This document shows, in pieces, positions 4,132 through 11,526 of a stretch of DNA of 64,000 bases; within the stretch, counting starts at the first letter, position 1, and every line of letters begins with the position of its first letter. The stretch is from positions 116,759 to 180,758 of IMG/VR virus record IMGVR_UViG_3300032304_002285, one strand, 5' to 3'. The DNA comes from a virus. The notes below the pieces were generated by a model. It searched no databases and was not told the DNA's origin. It saw only the letters and a list, made by a program, of their open reading frames with translations. A program made the translations under genes and the position numbers.

Positions 4132-4890
4132 ATGGGAACGGAAGAGGCTGAGAAGAGTGTTGTTGCTGGAGCAAAGGTTCATCATTCGGCTACTTGCTGG
4201 GGACATTTTGATAAGAAAGCCAAGGAATGCTCACAGTGCTTGGTTTTCCAAGCGTGTCTGGAGGCTACTGTCAATATTAACACGCTACAGGCTTCTCCTG
4301 CTAAGGCAAAGCCGGTAGCTACAGTTACTCCTGCTCCTGTGGTTATTGCTACTCCTGTGGCTCCTGTTGTTGCTTCTGGGTGTGTTGCGTCCTCTTCTCC
4401 TGTCCATAAGAAAGTGGTTAAGCCAGAAATTTTGGCGACTCCTGTTAGGACGGCTGATGTTGAGGTTGTGAAAAAACAGGAAGAGGATGTTCCTGTTGAA
4501 GAAATTAAGATTGAGGTAAAAAAGGAAGAGCCAAAGGTTCTTGCGATTGTCCCGGAAGTTGCTCCTGTGTTGGTTGTGGAGCCTCAGAAGGATGATTTGG
4601 ATCAGCTTCCTATCATTAACATGTTGAAGGAAAAGCTTGGAGTAGAGCCGAATGTTAAGGGTGGGTTTGGTTCTGATGTCTATCTCTTCATTTATGGAGA
4701 GGATAAGGGTTTGCAGGTTGTCCTTCAAAAGGCATCTGGTGATGCTGTTTTCATGAATAAGGACGGGGTTAAGAAGGAGTTTTCTTATTTTAAGACAGTG
4801 AAGGTAAAGGGAGGGAAGCCAACGAAAGAAAGGCTTTCGTATCAAGAGAAGACCAAGAAGATTCAAGAAATCTTTGACGCTGTTCTCTAA
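4132..4890 (+). CDS. Hypothetical protein with N-terminal Cys4 motif and Pro/Val/Ala-rich linker
   Basis: CWGHFDKKAKECSQCLVFQAC; SD-like GAGGAG upstream. Confidence 0.6.
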   Translation: MGTEEAEKSVVAGAKVHHSATCWGHFDKKAKECSQCLVFQACLEATVNINTLQASPAKAKPVATVTPAPVVIATPVAPVVASGCVASSSPVHKKVVKPEILATPVRTADVEVVKKQEEDVPVEEIKIEVKKEEPKVLAIVPEVAPVLVVEPQKDDLDQLPIINMLKEKLGVEPNVKGGFGSDVYLFIYGEDKGLQVVLQKASGDAVFMNKDGVKKEFSYFKTVKVKGGKPTKERLSYQEKTKKIQEIFDAVL

Positions 4891-8449: not shown

Positions 8450-9031
8450 ATGACAATGGCTGTGATTCAAAATATTGCTGAAATGTCTATGAAATTAGGC
8501 CAGCAAGACATTTGTGGGATTCGTCTTGAGGATGCAGGTCCAGATCTTCTTGACGTTAGTAAGCTTGATTTGGATATGCATGTTATTATGCAACCAAACG
8601 CAATTGCTTATTATGGTGCAGTGAAGAAGGAAGCTAGTAGGCAGTTGAGTAATTTAAAGAAGGCTTATGATCGTTGGTCTAAGAAGAAATATGCAGAAGC
8701 TAAGGCTAGTCTTGGTGCTGGAACCGGGAAAACCACCGTAGCAGATATTGAGGCAAGATTCATCGTTGATAATGAGATTCAGATTGAGGATTGGGAAAGG
8801 CGGATTGAGGAAGCTCAATTTGATTATGATACGATGGATTCATATCTTGAGGCTTGGAGGCAAAAATCCTTTACGATCCGTGAATATGCCAATTTAAACA
8901 ACATGGAAAACTATAACTCTAATTCCTCTTTGTCTGAGGAAAAGGCAAGGAATACGGGTTCGATGACAAGCAGTGTTAGTAGGGTTAAATCTGTGATTAG
9001 GCAAAGGCATGAGGAAAAACTTCAAGGCTAA
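8450..9031 (+). CDS. uvsY: UvsY-like recombination mediator
   Basis: Helical protein with AIAYYG and YLEAWRQKSFTIRE, recalling the T4 UvsY C-terminus; precedes SSB and RecA; GGAG SD. Confidence 0.6.
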   Translation: MTMAVIQNIAEMSMKLGQQDICGIRLEDAGPDLLDVSKLDLDMHVIMQPNAIAYYGAVKKEASRQLSNLKKAYDRWSKKKYAEAKASLGAGTGKTTVADIEARFIVDNEIQIEDWERRIEEAQFDYDTMDSYLEAWRQKSFTIREYANLNNMENYNSNSSLSEEKARNTGSMTSSVSRVKSVIRQRHEEKLQG

Positions 9032-10010
9032 TGCCAAGGTAAAAAAAGGCAAACAAGGGAGTAGCGTCATGAGTAGCGTACTGGACAAGATTCGTCGGAT
9101 GAAGGAACGGGAACCGGTTCGGACTAACTTCAGTTCTTTCCGGGGTATCTTCCATTCTTGGAAAGATGCTGATAACATTGTCCGTCTGGTTGGGGAAATG
9201 ACTGAGGTTCATACTCACTATGTTTGTCCCAATCCGAAACGTGGGGAACGTGGGCTGTGCCAAGGCAAGTCTTTTCAGGGTGAAGGGAAGATTCCCGCTA
9301 CGGTGAATTGCCTTGATTGGGACATTGCCAAGGAAGAAATGAAGAAGGATCGTACTTGCCCCTTCTGCAAGCTTTCTGCTTTGGCAAAACAGGCTCTTAA
9401 GGAGAACCCCAACGCTGAAGAGAAGAAGTTCTTTGAGGCTCTTAAGCAGGCTTCTTATGCTCGTGTTGCTTTGAAGTGGAACATTATTGATCGTGATGAC
9501 CCGTATATCATCAAGGTTGATAATGGGAACGAAATCAAGGTCCCTGGTTTGAAGATTGCTACGGTTGGAAAGGAATTGTGGCGTGATATCGAAGGTGTCT
9601 TCAATCAGTGTGGTTTTGATATCACTGATACTGATGAAGGCATTGATATCTGTGTTACCAAGGGGAGTGGGGCTAAGACTACTTATGCAGCTAAGGCTGT
9701 ATTGTTTGGGAAGCCTCTTTCCGTCAAGGTTACTCCTTTGACTGCTGAAGAGCGTTCTTGGGATCTCCATGATTTGAAGACCATTTGTGGTAAGCAAACA
9801 GCTTTTGATTTGCTTATGGATGCACTCCATCCTGATCTTCGGGAGTTGCTGGATCTGAATTCTGGAGAGGAGGAAGCTGCTCCTGCTACTCCTCCTAAGT
9901 CTGCTGGGAAGATTCCCCGGAAGATGGCTGAAGAGGAAGAGCAAGATGATGCTCTTGGTGATGAGGATGAGGATGCAATTGGTGGTTCTTCGGGTGTAAA
10001 AAAAAAGTAA
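9009..10010 (+). CDS. gp32-like single-stranded DNA-binding protein (short form)
   Basis: HYVCP...CPFC Zn motifs, NIIDRD, DTDEGIDICVTKGSGAKTTY and acidic C-terminus; lies between UvsY-like gene and recA. Confidence 0.75.
   Translation: MRKNFKANAKVKKGKQGSSVMSSVLDKIRRMKEREPVRTNFSSFRGIFHSWKDADNIVRLVGEMTEVHTHYVCPNPKRGERGLCQGKSFQGEGKIPATVNCLDWDIAKEEMKKDRTCPFCKLSALAKQALKENPNAEEKKFFEALKQASYARVALKWNIIDRDDPYIIKVDNGNEIKVPGLKIATVGKELWRDIEGVFNQCGFDITDTDEGIDICVTKGSGAKTTYAAKAVLFGKPLSVKVTPLTAEERSWDLHDLKTICGKQTAFDLLMDALHPDLRELLDLNSGEEEAAPATPPKSAGKIPRKMAEEEEQDDALGDEDEDAIGGSSGVKKK
9998..10007 (+). promoter_or_regulatory. Slippery site (A9 run containing A-AAA-AAG) directly before the SSB stop
   Basis: GTA AAA AAA AAG TAA; the -1 frame stays open for 95 codons to TGA at 10292-10294. 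Confidence 0.55.
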
Positions 10011-10294
10011 CTGAGGTTCAGGAGAAAAAGCCGGAACCGTCAAGGCAGTCTCAGGTTGCTCCTGTAGAATCTAAGCCTGTTAAGCCAGTTTCGGCTCCTG
10101 TTTCCCAGCCAGAACCGGAGAAAGAGATTCCGGTTCTAAAGTCAGAGTCTTCTGCTAGCTCGAAATCGGCTCTTGATTTCTCAAACATTGATCCTGAAAA
10201 AGACTGGGAATGTTTTGGGACTTATGACAAGAAGAGTCATGAATGCAAAGAATGCCCATTTGCAGTTAAGTGCGAGCAGAAAAAAGGCGGTTGA
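10007..10294 (+). CDS. -1 frame C-terminal extension of SSB (Pro/Ser linker plus Cys4 domain)
   Basis: VTEVQEKKPEPS...DWECFGTYDKKSHECKECPFAVKCEQKKGG-stop; no in-frame ATG of its own; motif matches the N-terminus of ORF 4132. Confidence 0.7.
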   Translation, partial: VTEVQEKKPEPSRQSQVAPVESKPVKPVSAPVSQPEPEKEIPVLKSESSASSKSALDFSNIDPEKDWECFGTYDKKSHECKECPFAVKCEQKKGG

Positions 10295-10350
10295 GATAGA
10301 GGTTAAACCGGGGGATGGATTGTCCATCCCCTTTTTTAGGAGAGTGGTTT

Positions 10351-11526
10351 ATGGCTTCAAATATTCAGATGACTCCTGATCGGCAAAAGCGGTTTGAACG
10401 GTTGCGGAAGATTTGTGATACGATTAAGAAGGCTGAAAAAGCCCAGGATATTATTACCTTTTTGGGTTCTGGTGATACTATTCCTATTGCTCGTTTTTCT
10501 TCTGGTTGTCCCGAATTGGATTCTGCATTGGGAGGAGGTTGGCCAAAGGGGAGGTTTATTGAACTTTTTGGGCCTGAATCTGGCGGTAAATCCACTACCT
10601 GCTTGCATGCTATCGCTGAGTTCCAAAAAGATGCTCCGGATGAAGATGTTGCTTTGGTTGACACTGAGTTTTCATTTGATGAAGAGTATGCTAGGAATTT
10701 GGGTGTAGATACTGATTTGCTTCTTGTGAATCAGCCTGAAAGTGGTGAACAGGCTCTTAAGGTTGTTCGTCATTTGATTCAGCTTGGGGTTGGTCTTATC
10801 ATTGTCGATTCGGTTGCTGCTTTGACTCCTCAGGCTGAGCTTGATGGTGACATTGGCGATCAACATGTTGGGCAACAAGCTCGCTTGATGTCTCAAACAA
10901 TGCGAATTCTTTGCGCTGAGGCTGGTAAGCGGGGTACTACTATCTTTTGGACCAATCAGATGCGTGAAAAGATTGGTGTCATGTATGGGGATAAAACAAC
11001 AACTCCCGGTGGTAGAGCCTTGCGCCATTACGCTTCTATTCGGGTGAATATCTCTTCTATTTCAAAAGAGAAGGATGGAGAGATTATTGTTGGGAGCAAG
11101 GTTCAGGCAGATGTAAAGAAGAACAAGACTGCTGCTCCTTTCAAGAAGGCTATCTTCTACATTTCCTTTGGAACAGGAATTGATCGGGTTGCTGCTATTT
11201 GCGATAAGGCAATTGCGATTAAGGTTGTTACAAAGAGAGGGGCAAAAATCTCTTATAAGGATCAAGTTGTTGGAGCAGGCAGAAAAGACTTCATTGATTT
11301 TGCTAAGAAAACCCCACAATTCTTTGCAGAATTGGAGGAGGCTGTAAAAAATGCTCCTAAAGATCCGGTAGATGCTTTGGAGGCAGAGGAAGGGGAATCT
11401 GCTGTTGCTATCAAAAAGCCAAAGGGGATGATTAAGAGAACCCCTGTGACTTCTTTAGAGGAGGCTCTTCCCGATGGTAGCGTTAAACAAGTAGATGCGG
11501 AATTGGTGGAGGAACAAGATGCCTGA
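10351..11526 (+). CDS. recA: RecA recombinase
   Basis: GPESGGKST, IIVDSVAAL, QARLMSQ, NQMREKIGVMYG and TTPGGRALR. Confidence 0.97.
   Translation: MASNIQMTPDRQKRFERLRKICDTIKKAEKAQDIITFLGSGDTIPIARFSSGCPELDSALGGGWPKGRFIELFGPESGGKSTTCLHAIAEFQKDAPDEDVALVDTEFSFDEEYARNLGVDTDLLLVNQPESGEQALKVVRHLIQLGVGLIIVDSVAALTPQAELDGDIGDQHVGQQARLMSQTMRILCAEAGKRGTTIFWTNQMREKIGVMYGDKTTTPGGRALRHYASIRVNISSISKEKDGEIIVGSKVQADVKKNKTAAPFKKAIFYISFGTGIDRVAAICDKAIAIKVVTKRGAKISYKDQVVGAGRKDFIDFAKKTPQFFAELEEAVKNAPKDPVDALEAEEGESAVAIKKPKGMIKRTPVTSLEEALPDGSVKQVDAELVEEQDA

What the first reader, a model, noticed from the sequence alone, without database searches (positions are those of the whole stretch)
9981..10294. Candidate programmed frameshift or slippage giving two SSB isoforms
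Seen: the SSB ends GTA AAA AAA AAG TAA, a run of 9 A containing A-AAA-AAG. The -1 frame continues 95 codons to a Cys4 domain with no start of its own. GGTGG lies upstream, and CTGA-GGTTC...GAACC...TCAG downstream could pair. Known: E. coli dnaX shifts -1 on A-AAA-AAG, and Thermus dnaX uses transcriptional slippage on A9. Inference: a short acidic-tailed SSB and a long Zn-tailed SSB from one gene. A homopolymer assembly error is the main alternative.
Basis: partly seen in the sequence, partly recalled or inferred. Interest (0 to 1): 0.72.

Follow-up and report, generated by a model that had tools for sequence, protein, structure and literature searches.

The report
Conserved frameshift extends phage SSB
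The DNA-coating protein (SSB) gene of this large uncultured phage ends in a run of nine A's that very probably lets a share of its products shift one base back and gain a 95-residue tail with a four-cysteine metal-binding module, an arrangement kept in dozens of related phages and, as far as I could find, not described in print.

Summary
The gp32-like SSB gene (9009-10010) ends GTA AAA AAA AAG TAA. The -1 frame is open from 9971 to 10294, has no start codon, and ends in a CFGT..H.EC..C.....C module.

An assembly error is very unlikely. Among 60 distinct homologous loci from independent metagenomes (38-63% identity):
- 32 have the Cys4 domain in the -1 frame.
- 5 more have the same slip site, but the contig ends before the domain.
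- 18 have the domain fused in frame, without an A-run.

An in-phase X_XXY_YYZ heptamer lies 0-6 nt before the stop in nearly all split loci. Some are non-homopolymeric: G_GGA_AAC, C_CCT_TTC, A_AAG_GGT.

Two classes appear:
- Short or non-A heptamers always have a strong downstream hairpin, which fits ribosomal -1 frameshifting.
- A9/A10 runs occur in any codon phase and have stops in both the 0 and +1 frames right after the run. This fits transcriptional slippage.

The window belongs to the second class; its own hairpin is not better than chance.

Predicted products are a 333-aa short SSB and a 428-aa long SSB. I could not measure either product or the shift efficiency. The function of the Cys4 module is unknown.

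This scan found the same arrangement before on two other genomes. Four literature searches found no description.

The parts
9009..10010 (+). gp32-like SSB gene, 0 frame. Encodes the 333-aa short isoform, which ends ...EDEDAIGGSSGVKKK.
   Evidence: ORF. PHROG 1192 (SSB) E 2.9e-11. AF2 model pLDDT 84.5. Its six best Foldseek hits are RB69/T4 gp32 core, E 4e-5 to 8e-4, probability 1.00.
9998..10006 (+). A9 homopolymer, the recoding site. It contains the in-phase heptamers A_AAA_AAA (9998-10004) and A_AAA_AAG (10001-10007).
   Evidence: Sequence. Homologs carry A9 in all three codon phases; A6/A7 occur only in heptamer-compatible phases. A runs of 8 or more are depleted in the window and contig.
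10008..10014 (+). Double stop TAA-C-TGA. TAA closes the 0 frame and TGA (10012-10014) closes the +1 frame. Only the -1 frame stays open.
   Evidence: In 21 of 26 A9/A10 loci the +1 frame closes within 10 nt of the heptamer. In 0 of 12 loci with shorter or non-A heptamers does it do so (Mann-Whitney p = 3e-7, not corrected for phylogeny).
10007..10294 (+). -1-frame extension of 95 codons plus TGA. No start codon of its own. The predicted long isoform is 428 aa with junction ...GVKKK-VTEVQEKK...
   Evidence: In-frame homologs read straight through the same junction (P0087 ...LKKKVTAAD..., P0053 ...GKKKVEEQ...).
10007..10162 (+). Ser/Pro/Val/Glu/Lys-rich low-complexity linker of the long isoform.
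   Evidence: Composition. Homolog linkers run from about 10 to about 185 aa and are not conserved in sequence; some hold extra zinc ribbons.
10163..10291 (+). Cys4 module. The motif CFGTYDKKSHECKECPFAVKC is at 10211-10273, with spacing C-x10-C-x2-C-x5-C.
   Evidence: Alignment A2 of 52 modules has four invariant Cys, and F, G and E are at least 90% conserved. AF2 model pLDDT 85. The profile finds 128 proteins.
10012..10042 (+). A possible stimulator, not shown.
   Evidence: -14.9 kcal/mol, z -0.55. Strong hairpins occur at this place in relatives, with some covariation in one subclade.
9981..9985 (+). GGTGG, a Shine-Dalgarno-like element 15 nt upstream of A_AAA_AAG. Its role is not shown.
   Evidence: Duplex with the anti-SD is -8.5 kcal/mol. 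Across 36 loci the enrichment is weak (p = 0.06) and confounded by conserved Gly codons.
10310..10338 (+). Terminator-like hairpin plus T run just after the extension's stop and before the RecA/UvsX gene.
   Evidence: 10-pair stem with 6 G-C pairs, then TTTTT.
10351..11526 (+). Next gene: RecA/UvsX-like recombinase (context only).
   Evidence: Pfam RecA E 1e-83. PHROG 97 UvsX-like.
4195..4269 (+). Second copy of the Cys4 module, at the N-terminus of ORF 4132-4890 (CWGHFDKKAKECSQCLVFQAC, same spacing).
   Evidence: Profile A2 against the window's own genome, E 2e-5. Translation.

Best explanation
This is a programmed -1 recoding site at the end of a gp32-like SSB gene of a large uncultured phage.

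Most products stop at TAA 10008 and give a 333-aa SSB with an acidic tail ending in KKK. A fraction reads on in the -1 frame and gives a 428-aa SSB with a flexible linker and a C-terminal four-cysteine module that is presumably metal-binding.

The shift takes place on the A9 run, by one or both of two routes:
- RNA polymerase adds one A, giving A10 transcripts.
- The ribosome slips back one base on A_AAA_AAG, next to the stop codon.

Both routes give the same protein junction (...KKK-VTEV...).

The window belongs to the class of relatives with A9/A10 runs, stops in the 0 and +1 frames right after the run, and often no strong hairpin. For this class I judge transcriptional slippage the main route, at roughly 55:35 against ribosomal slippage.

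Shown: the anatomy, its conservation, and that the long form exists as a real protein in relatives.

Inferred: that both forms are made here, their ratio, and the route.

The role of the module is a guess. It may be a docking or tethering element, because a second protein of the same phage carries it at its N-terminus, and because the free acidic C-terminus is masked in the long form.
For: 1. The anatomy is as described. The extension has no start codon and fills the whole 300-nt gap up to a terminator-like hairpin.

2. Conservation. Of 60 distinct loci from independent assemblies, 32 have the Cys4 domain in the -1 frame. Five more end at the same slip site with the contig cut, 18 are fused in frame, and 2 are offset +1. 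The split state occurs in many clades; well-supported branches force at least 7 changes.

3. An in-phase X_XXY_YYZ heptamer lies 0-6 nt before the stop in nearly all split loci. These include G_GGA_AAC (L033), C_CCT_TTC (L059) and A_AAG_GGT (L082/L090).

4. The Cys4 module is under selection: four invariant Cys across 52 sequences.

5. There are two classes. Runs of A8 or shorter and non-A heptamers (n = 12) all have strong hairpins (mean -23 kcal/mol, z -3.3). A9/A10 loci (n = 26) average -14.3 kcal/mol, z -1.2. A9/A10 loci close the +1 frame within 7-16 nt; the others do so only at 16-76 nt.

6. A9 occurs in all three codon phases.

7. A runs longer than 7 are linked in the literature to transcriptional realignment, and A_AAA_AAG/A_AAA_AAA to ribosomal frameshifting (PMC3711429).

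8. Homopolymers of 8 or more are otherwise avoided in this genome.
Against: - There is no RNA, protein or raw-read data. The only run that holds the sequence is DNA contigs of the probable source sample.
- The window's own downstream hairpin and SD-like element are not better than chance.
- The class statistics are not corrected for phylogeny. The short-heptamer class is about 6-7 independent lineages.
- Rare indel variants of the run occur in assemblies (L050 A10 in frame, L046 offset +1). So some DNA-level variation or sequencing error at such runs is real.
- Stops in the +1 frame could also serve to end -2 ribosomal slips, so they do not prove transcriptional slippage.
Confidence: 0.85

Rival explanations
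1. Purely ribosomal -1 frameshifting, as in E. coli dnaX. Tandem slippage of the Lys tRNAs on A_AAA_AAG (10001-10007) is helped by the adjacent TAA stop, the weak stem-loop at 10012-10042 and perhaps the GGTGG 15 nt upstream. RNA polymerase slippage adds little.
For: The heptamer is in phase and directly followed by the stop. Relatives with non-homopolymeric heptamers and strong hairpins show that the family uses ribosomal frameshifting. A subset of A9 loci also has strong hairpins with compensatory changes.
Against: Only seven A's are needed for this route, yet A9 is the dominant length and occurs in every codon phase. A9/A10 loci specifically close the +1 frame as well. The window's hairpin is at chance level.
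Confidence: 0.35
2. Homopolymer assembly or sequencing error. The true DNA has A10 (or A7), and the gene is one continuous 428-aa ORF.
For: Homopolymers are error-prone. One relative (L050) has A10 and reads in frame. 18 relatives are fused. No raw reads could be inspected.
Against: The same -1 offset recurs in more than 30 independent assemblies with run lengths A6 to A10 and with non-A heptamers. Truly fused relatives lack the A-run altogether. Stops in the 0 and +1 frames sit right after the run. A second assembler gives A9 at about 10x depth.
Confidence: 0.03
3. DNA-level phase variation. The run changes length during replication, so that subpopulations of phage make either the short or the long SSB, without recoding at the RNA or protein level.
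For: A9/A10 runs are mutable. Rare off-register variants exist among assemblies (L050, L046, P0118).
Against: Consensus assemblies almost always show the -1 state. Lineages with non-repetitive heptamers (L033, L059, L090) cannot vary this way yet keep the same arrangement.
Confidence: 0.05
4. The extension is not joined to the SSB. Either it is a decaying remnant of a formerly fused domain, or it is translated on its own by re-initiation after the stop.
For: Gene callers list dozens of such extensions as separate 40-150-aa proteins. One relative has a stop inside the module (L045).
Against: The frame has no ATG, GTG, TTG or CTG here, and no start is conserved in relatives (the codon after the run is GTA, TTA or CTG). 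The four Cys are invariant and the frames are intact across deep divergence. The slippery heptamers are conserved in phase.
Confidence: 0.03

Closest known systems
E. coli dnaX tau/gamma: -1 ribosomal frameshift on A_AAA_AAG with an upstream SD-like element and a downstream stem-loop (established knowledge; the motif is cited in PMC3711429)
   Same: A replication gene. The same heptamer in phase. Two isoforms that share the N-terminal body and differ in a C-terminal interaction region. Relatives of the window have a strong hairpin a few nucleotides downstream.
   Different: In dnaX the shift truncates the protein (gamma); here it extends it. The 0-frame stop sits directly after the heptamer. 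The window's own hairpin and SD-like element are not significant.
Thermus thermophilus dnaX and the Chlorobi-type dnaX genes: transcriptional slippage on A9/A10 (PMC3711429; Larsen et al. 2000, from memory)
   Same: A9/A10 run. Homologous genes in different lineages use either ribosomal frameshifting or transcriptional slippage to get two isoforms. The run length is conserved rather than the codon phase.
   Different: A different protein family and a phage setting. The double stop TRA-n-TGA after the run is, as far as I know, not a described feature of dnaX. Slippage has not been shown here.
Phage tail assembly chaperone G/GT -1 frameshift (lambda-like; mentioned in PMC3711429)
   Same: A phage gene in which a conserved -1 shift near the 3' end adds a C-terminal domain to a fraction of the product. 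The arrangement is conserved across very divergent phages while the sequence is not.
   Different: A structural and assembly gene, not a replication gene. The slippery sites there are usually not long A runs.
T4/RB69 gp32 SSB
   Same: The core fold matches (Foldseek E 4e-5, probability 1.00). His/Cys residues are invariant in the core. There is an acidic C-terminal region, and the gene sits next to a UvsX/RecA-like recombinase.
   Different: About 14% identity. The window protein has no Pfam gp32 hit. gp32 has no known recoding and no Cys4 tail.

Membership tests
-1 programmed ribosomal frameshift site (dnaX / IS3 type) | X_XXY_YYZ heptamer in the 0-frame phase | tested here: met
   A_AAA_AAG at 10001-10007, with codons AAA and AAG in frame.
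-1 programmed ribosomal frameshift site (dnaX / IS3 type) | -1 ORF overlaps the site, lacks its own start and encodes a conserved domain | tested here: met
   Open 9971-10294 with no start codon. Cys4 module with four invariant Cys in 52 sequences.
-1 programmed ribosomal frameshift site (dnaX / IS3 type) | Site and frame relation conserved in homologs | tested here: met
   32 of 60 distinct loci are in the -1 state, plus 5 cut off at the same site. An in-phase heptamer lies 0-6 nt from the stop in nearly all.
-1 programmed ribosomal frameshift site (dnaX / IS3 type) | Downstream stimulatory structure 5-9 nt after the heptamer | tested here: inconclusive
   Window: -14.9 kcal/mol, z -0.55. Relatives with short or non-A heptamers all have strong hairpins. 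One subclade shows 6 of 17 pairs with compensatory changes.
-1 programmed ribosomal frameshift site (dnaX / IS3 type) | Upstream SD-like stimulator | tested here: inconclusive
   GGTGG at 9981-9985. The family-wide enrichment has p = 0.06 and is confounded by Gly-Gly codons.
-1 programmed ribosomal frameshift site (dnaX / IS3 type) | Both protein products observed | not testable with these tools
   No expression or proteome data.
Programmed transcriptional realignment (T. thermophilus dnaX type) | Homopolymer run of about 8-9 or more A (or T) | tested here: met
   A9 at 9998-10006. The A9/A10 loci are the largest class of split relatives: 26 of the 38 scored.
Programmed transcriptional realignment (T. 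thermophilus dnaX type) | Run length conserved independently of codon phase | tested here: met
   A9 is found in phases 0, 1 and 2.
Programmed transcriptional realignment (T. thermophilus dnaX type) | Run-length heterogeneity in RNA but not in DNA | not testable with these tools
   No RNA holder is listed. Only contigs were available for the DNA.
gp32-like phage SSB | gp32 core fold | tested here: met
   The six best Foldseek hits are RB69/T4 gp32, E 4e-5 to 8e-4, clearly separated from the rest.
gp32-like phage SSB | Sequence-profile match (Pfam PF08804 / PHROG SSB) | tested here: inconclusive
   PHROG 1192 E 2.9e-11. Pfam gp32 is matched by only 1 of 35 homologs and not by the window protein. 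A PDB profile search found nothing.
gp32-like phage SSB | Zinc site (His + 3 Cys) in the core | tested here: inconclusive
   H70, C101, C117 and C120 are invariant in alignment A1. I did not check whether they map onto the gp32 zinc ligands.
WhiB-like Fe-S domain (Cys-Xn-Cys-X2-Cys-X5-Cys) | Profile match to Pfam Whib | tested here: not met
   Only 2 of 52 modules match, best E 0.035, below the cutoff. The C-x2-C-x5-C spacing is the same, but that is a resemblance only.

The most novel reading that the evidence does not exclude
This SSB family would be a second natural system, after dnaX, in which homologous replication genes have switched repeatedly among three solutions. The three are in-frame fusion, hairpin-stimulated ribosomal -1 frameshifting on short heptamers, and transcriptional slippage on A9/A10 bounded by a double stop.

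In this reading the fixed short:long ratio tunes SSB function by alternately exposing the acidic C-terminal tip or masking it and adding a new metal-binding docking module. That module is shared with other phage and cellular proteins.
Probability: 0.4. Interest if true: 0.75.

Novelty: new member of a known kind. Interest (0 to 1): 0.62.

Why it matters
If confirmed, this adds a core replication and recombination protein of large uncultured phages to the short list of genes that use programmed recoding to make two isoforms.

The family offers a natural comparative series: fused forms, forms with a heptamer plus hairpin, and forms with an A9 run plus a double stop. That series could be used to study how ribosomal frameshifting and transcriptional slippage replace each other in evolution.

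It also matters for annotation. Current gene calls truncate these SSBs and list the extension as dozens of orphan mini-proteins.

It points to an uncharacterised four-cysteine module that occurs on several unrelated proteins.

Tried and rejected
- **Deposited phage genomes.** blastn and tblastn of the SSB found no match, so no annotated isolate could be consulted.
- **PDB sequence searches.** The SSB profile and the Cys4 profile both found nothing.
- **Structure searches for the Cys4 model.** Foldseek against the PDB and VIA-align wide both found nothing. The model is 43 residues, so this says little.
- **ESM Atlas.** Only unnamed viral clusters, with scores below 0.9.
- **Pfam on the Cys4 modules.** Only sub-threshold hits: DDE_Tnp_1_6 in 8 of 52, zf-POGZ in 4, Whib in 2. 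I rejected these as family assignments.
- **RNA evidence.** No RNA holder is listed.
- **Raw-read run length.** Only Logan contigs of the probable source sample were available. They agree with A9 but are not independent.
- **Literature.** Four full-text searches found no description of recoding in a phage SSB.
- **Upstream SD-like stimulator.** Not significant.
- **The window's downstream hairpin.** Not significant.
- **Hairpin upstream of the run** (the kind that stimulates some transcriptional slippage). Mean z -0.5, so no signal.
- **The other A9 run of the contig** (genome position 39593). It lies in an intergenic leader and is not a recoding site.
Full report
**What is there**

The + strand ORF 9009-10010 encodes a 333-aa protein that ends ...GGT GTA AAA AAA AAG TAA. 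The A9 run is 9998-10006. The -1 frame is open from 9971 to TGA 10292-10294. After the run it encodes 95 residues: a Ser/Pro/Val/Glu/Lys-rich linker, then ...DWECFGTYDKKSHECKECPFAVKCEQKKGG. That frame contains no ATG, GTG, TTG or CTG.

A terminator-like hairpin with a T run (10310-10338) follows the extension's stop, ahead of the next gene.

The neighbourhood is a replication and recombination module:
- two helicase halves upstream;
- a RecA/UvsX-like gene directly downstream (Pfam RecA 1e-83);
- then a 5'-3' exonuclease, a thymidylate kinase, a large DNA polymerase and a ribonucleotide reductase.

The window is the last 64 kb of a 180,758-bp viral contig that CheckV rates 51% complete.

**The protein is a gp32-type SSB**

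The window protein matches PHROG 1192 (SSB) at 2.9e-11 but no Pfam family. One of 35 homologs matches Pfam gp32.

An AlphaFold model built on the family alignment has pLDDT 84.5, with residues 298-333 disordered. Its six best PDB matches are the RB69 and T4 gp32 cores (E 4e-5 to 8e-4, probability 1.00). The next hits are noise.

No relative exists among 50,697 deposited phage genomes. The family is known only from metagenomes.

**Comparative test**

A protein search gave 114 homologs. Most end in an acidic stretch followed by ...KKK...KKN...KKS or ...QKKT and then a stop. About a tenth carry the Cys4 motif in frame at the C-terminus.

I fetched 93 homologous loci (21 from IMG/VR, 72 from JGI metagenomes). 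For each I located the SSB stop, nearby A runs and the frame of any Cys4 motif.

Among 60 distinct SSB cores:

| State | Loci |
|---|---|
| A-run at the stop, Cys4 domain in the -1 frame | 29 |
| -1 arrangement without an A-run | 3 |
| Same slip site, contig cut off before the domain | 5 |
| Domain fused in frame | 18 |
| Offset +1 | 2 |
| No intact Cys4 domain | 3 |

Of the last three, two are very distant outgroups that end in an SSB-tip-like ...DDIPF or ...DDDWD. The third (L045) has the A10 run and a module broken by a stop.

Run lengths are A6 (1 locus), A7 (6), A8 (1), A9 (most) and A10 (a few). The -1 extensions are 48-228 aa.

This refutes the assembly-error reading for the family. The same frame offset recurs with different run lengths, in different codon phases and in independent assemblies.

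The truly fused relatives have no A-run at the junction. The only exception is L050, which reads through an A10 run; its sister L009 has A9. For the window itself, a second assembler gives the same A9 at about 10x depth. That is the same sample, so it is weak support.

**Slippery heptamers**

In nearly all split loci an X_XXY_YYZ heptamer lies in the correct phase 0-6 nt before the 0-frame stop. Three lineages use non-homopolymeric heptamers:
- G_GGA_AAC (L033);
- C_CCT_TTC (L059), which overlaps the Pro-Phe codons of a canonical ...DEDTPF tip;
- A_AAG_GGT (L082/L090).

A6 and A7 runs occur only in the phases that give a valid heptamer. This is the signature of ribosomal -1 frameshifting.

The exceptions are:
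- L035 has no heptamer within 14 codons.
- L063 is offset +1 and has no run.
- L046 has A9 and is offset +1; it would be canonical with A10.
- L072 has its stop 27 nt after the run.

**Two classes**

| Feature | Runs of A8 or shorter, or non-A heptamers (n = 12, about 6-7 lineages) | A9/A10 (n = 26) |
|---|---|---|
| Hairpin within 55 nt downstream | strong in all: mean -23.0 kcal/mol, z -3.3 | weaker on average: mean -14.3 kcal/mol, z -1.2 |
| Where the +1 frame closes | 16-76 nt after the heptamer | 7-16 nt after the heptamer; 21 of 26 within 10 nt |

The hairpin difference gives Mann-Whitney p = 0.0006 on energy and 0.005 on z. Among the A9/A10 loci, a subset has strong hairpins and a subset has none. 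The +1-frame difference gives p = 3e-7. None of these tests is corrected for phylogeny.

The A9/A10 loci typically show the motif TRA-n-TGA. A9 is found in all three codon phases.

A run longer than a heptamer needs, indifference to phase, and stops that bound both non-productive frames are what one expects if RNA polymerase produces a spread of run lengths. Transcripts with n and n-1 A's would give short forms, and n+1 would give the long form. The literature links A runs longer than 7 to transcriptional realignment, and A_AAA_AAG/A_AAA_AAA to ribosomal frameshifting (PMC3711429).

The +1 stops could also cap -2 ribosomal slips, so this is suggestive, not proof.

In one A9 subclade (L007, L039, L041, L009, L056, L012, L038) the hairpin shows compensatory changes in 6 of 17 pairs. 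There, 83% of cells are paired against about 40% for slid controls, and the covariation score is reached by 18 of 500 shuffles.

**The window's class**

The window has A9, with TAA at 10008-10010 and TGA at 10012-10014 in the +1 frame. Its stem-loop at 10012-10042 is no better than shuffles (z -0.55). It therefore falls in the A9 double-stop class.

GGTGG (9981-9985) can pair with the anti-SD at -8.5 kcal/mol. Across the family the upstream signal is weak (p = 0.06) and sits on conserved Gly codons.

A/T runs of 8 or more are depleted in the window (5 matches against 29 +/- 8 expected). The only other A9 of the contig is in an intergenic leader.

Either route gives the same 428-aa protein with the junction ...GVKKK-VTEVQ.... 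This matches the in-frame homologs (...LKKKVTAAD......GKKKVEEQ...).

**Evolution**

On a maximum-likelihood tree of the cores, the split state is spread over many clades. The fused state is concentrated in one large clade with a few scattered cases. Well-supported branches force at least 7 changes for the A-run state and 4 for the fused state. Transitions between fusion and recoding have therefore happened several times.

**The Cys4 module**

Fifty-two distinct modules align with four invariant Cys (C-x10-12-C-x2-C-x5-C) and near-invariant F, G and E. The AF2 model has pLDDT 85 and three short helices.

No Pfam, PDB-sequence, Foldseek, VIA or Atlas match was found.

A profile search of 1.8 billion representatives found 128 proteins:
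- Most are 40-150-aa 'proteins' that are simply the extension called as a separate gene.
- Some are in-frame SSBs.
- A few are unrelated proteins with two or three tandem copies: HEAT plus cNMP-binding, TPR, and SAP-domain proteins.

The same phage has a second copy at the N-terminus of ORF 4132-4890 (E 2e-5).

The C-x2-C-x5-C spacing recalls WhiB-type Fe-S sites, but the profile test fails. Its function is unknown. A metal-dependent docking or tethering element is my guess.

**The two isoforms**

Distant relatives end in a bacterial-SSB-like acidic tip (...DDIPF...LPF). L059 keeps such a tip exactly at the stop, with the heptamer on its last two codons. Fused relatives keep an internal ...DDDAPFDDE-type motif.

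From this I infer that the short form exposes an acidic C-terminal tail for partner binding, as in gp32 and bacterial SSB. The long form masks it and adds another interaction module. This step is inference only.

**Earlier work and novelty**

Notes from this scan report the same arrangement on two other phage genomes, with the same reading. Other first-stage notes pointed to the second Cys4 copy, which I confirmed.

Four full-text literature searches found no published description.

The mechanism is of a known kind, closest to dnaX. The gene family, the double-stop feature of the A9 class and the module appear undescribed.

Noticed in passing
window 4132-4890 (module at 4195-4269): A 252-aa protein of unknown function starts with the same Cys4 module (CWGHFDKKAKECSQCLVFQAC), followed by a long Pro/Val/Ala-rich linker. 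It has no Pfam hit.
   Followed up: partly
P0131, P0145, P0162, P0206, P0199, P0230, P0233: The Cys4 module occurs in two or three tandem copies at the ends of unrelated proteins: HEAT repeats plus a cNMP-binding domain, TPR (one with an Mrr nuclease domain), and SAP-domain proteins. It is therefore a wider, uncatalogued mini-domain.
   Followed up: partly
L059:2940-3110: The short SSB form ends in a canonical SSB tip ...DEDTPF. The slippery heptamer C_CCT_TTC overlaps the last two codons, so the shift converts a free acidic tip into an internal one followed by the Cys4 tail.
   Followed up: partly
L045:2660-3300: A10 run with a 201-aa -1 extension. Its Cys4 module is interrupted by a stop (CKGCP*REEC). 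This could be a nonsense mutation, a sequencing error or a decaying copy.
   Followed up: no
L050:1965-1974; L046:970-990; P0118: Rare off-register versions of the run in assemblies: A10 reading in frame (its sister locus has A9), A9 with the extension in the +1 frame, and an in-frame ...AAKKVV... junction. These are either DNA-level run-length variants or homopolymer errors.
   Followed up: partly
L006, L040, L045, L081 (-1 extensions): Some extensions carry one or two additional CxxC...CxxC zinc-ribbon-like units in the linker, ahead of the terminal Cys4 module.
   Followed up: no
window 1-64000; genome contig: Homopolymers of 8 or more A/T are strongly depleted: 5 matches against 29 +/- 8 expected in the window. 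Most T runs of 8 or more appear to lie at gene ends or between genes.
   Followed up: partly
window 10310-10338: A strong terminator-like hairpin (10 pairs, then T5) sits between the SSB extension and the RecA/UvsX gene. The annotated 10315 ATG of the recombinase ORF lies inside it. The likely start is ATG 10351, after AGGAG.
   Followed up: no
protein databases (P0117-P0130 and others): Dozens of 40-150-aa database 'proteins' are the out-of-frame SSB extension called from arbitrary internal starts. This is a systematic annotation artefact for this phage group.
   Followed up: partly
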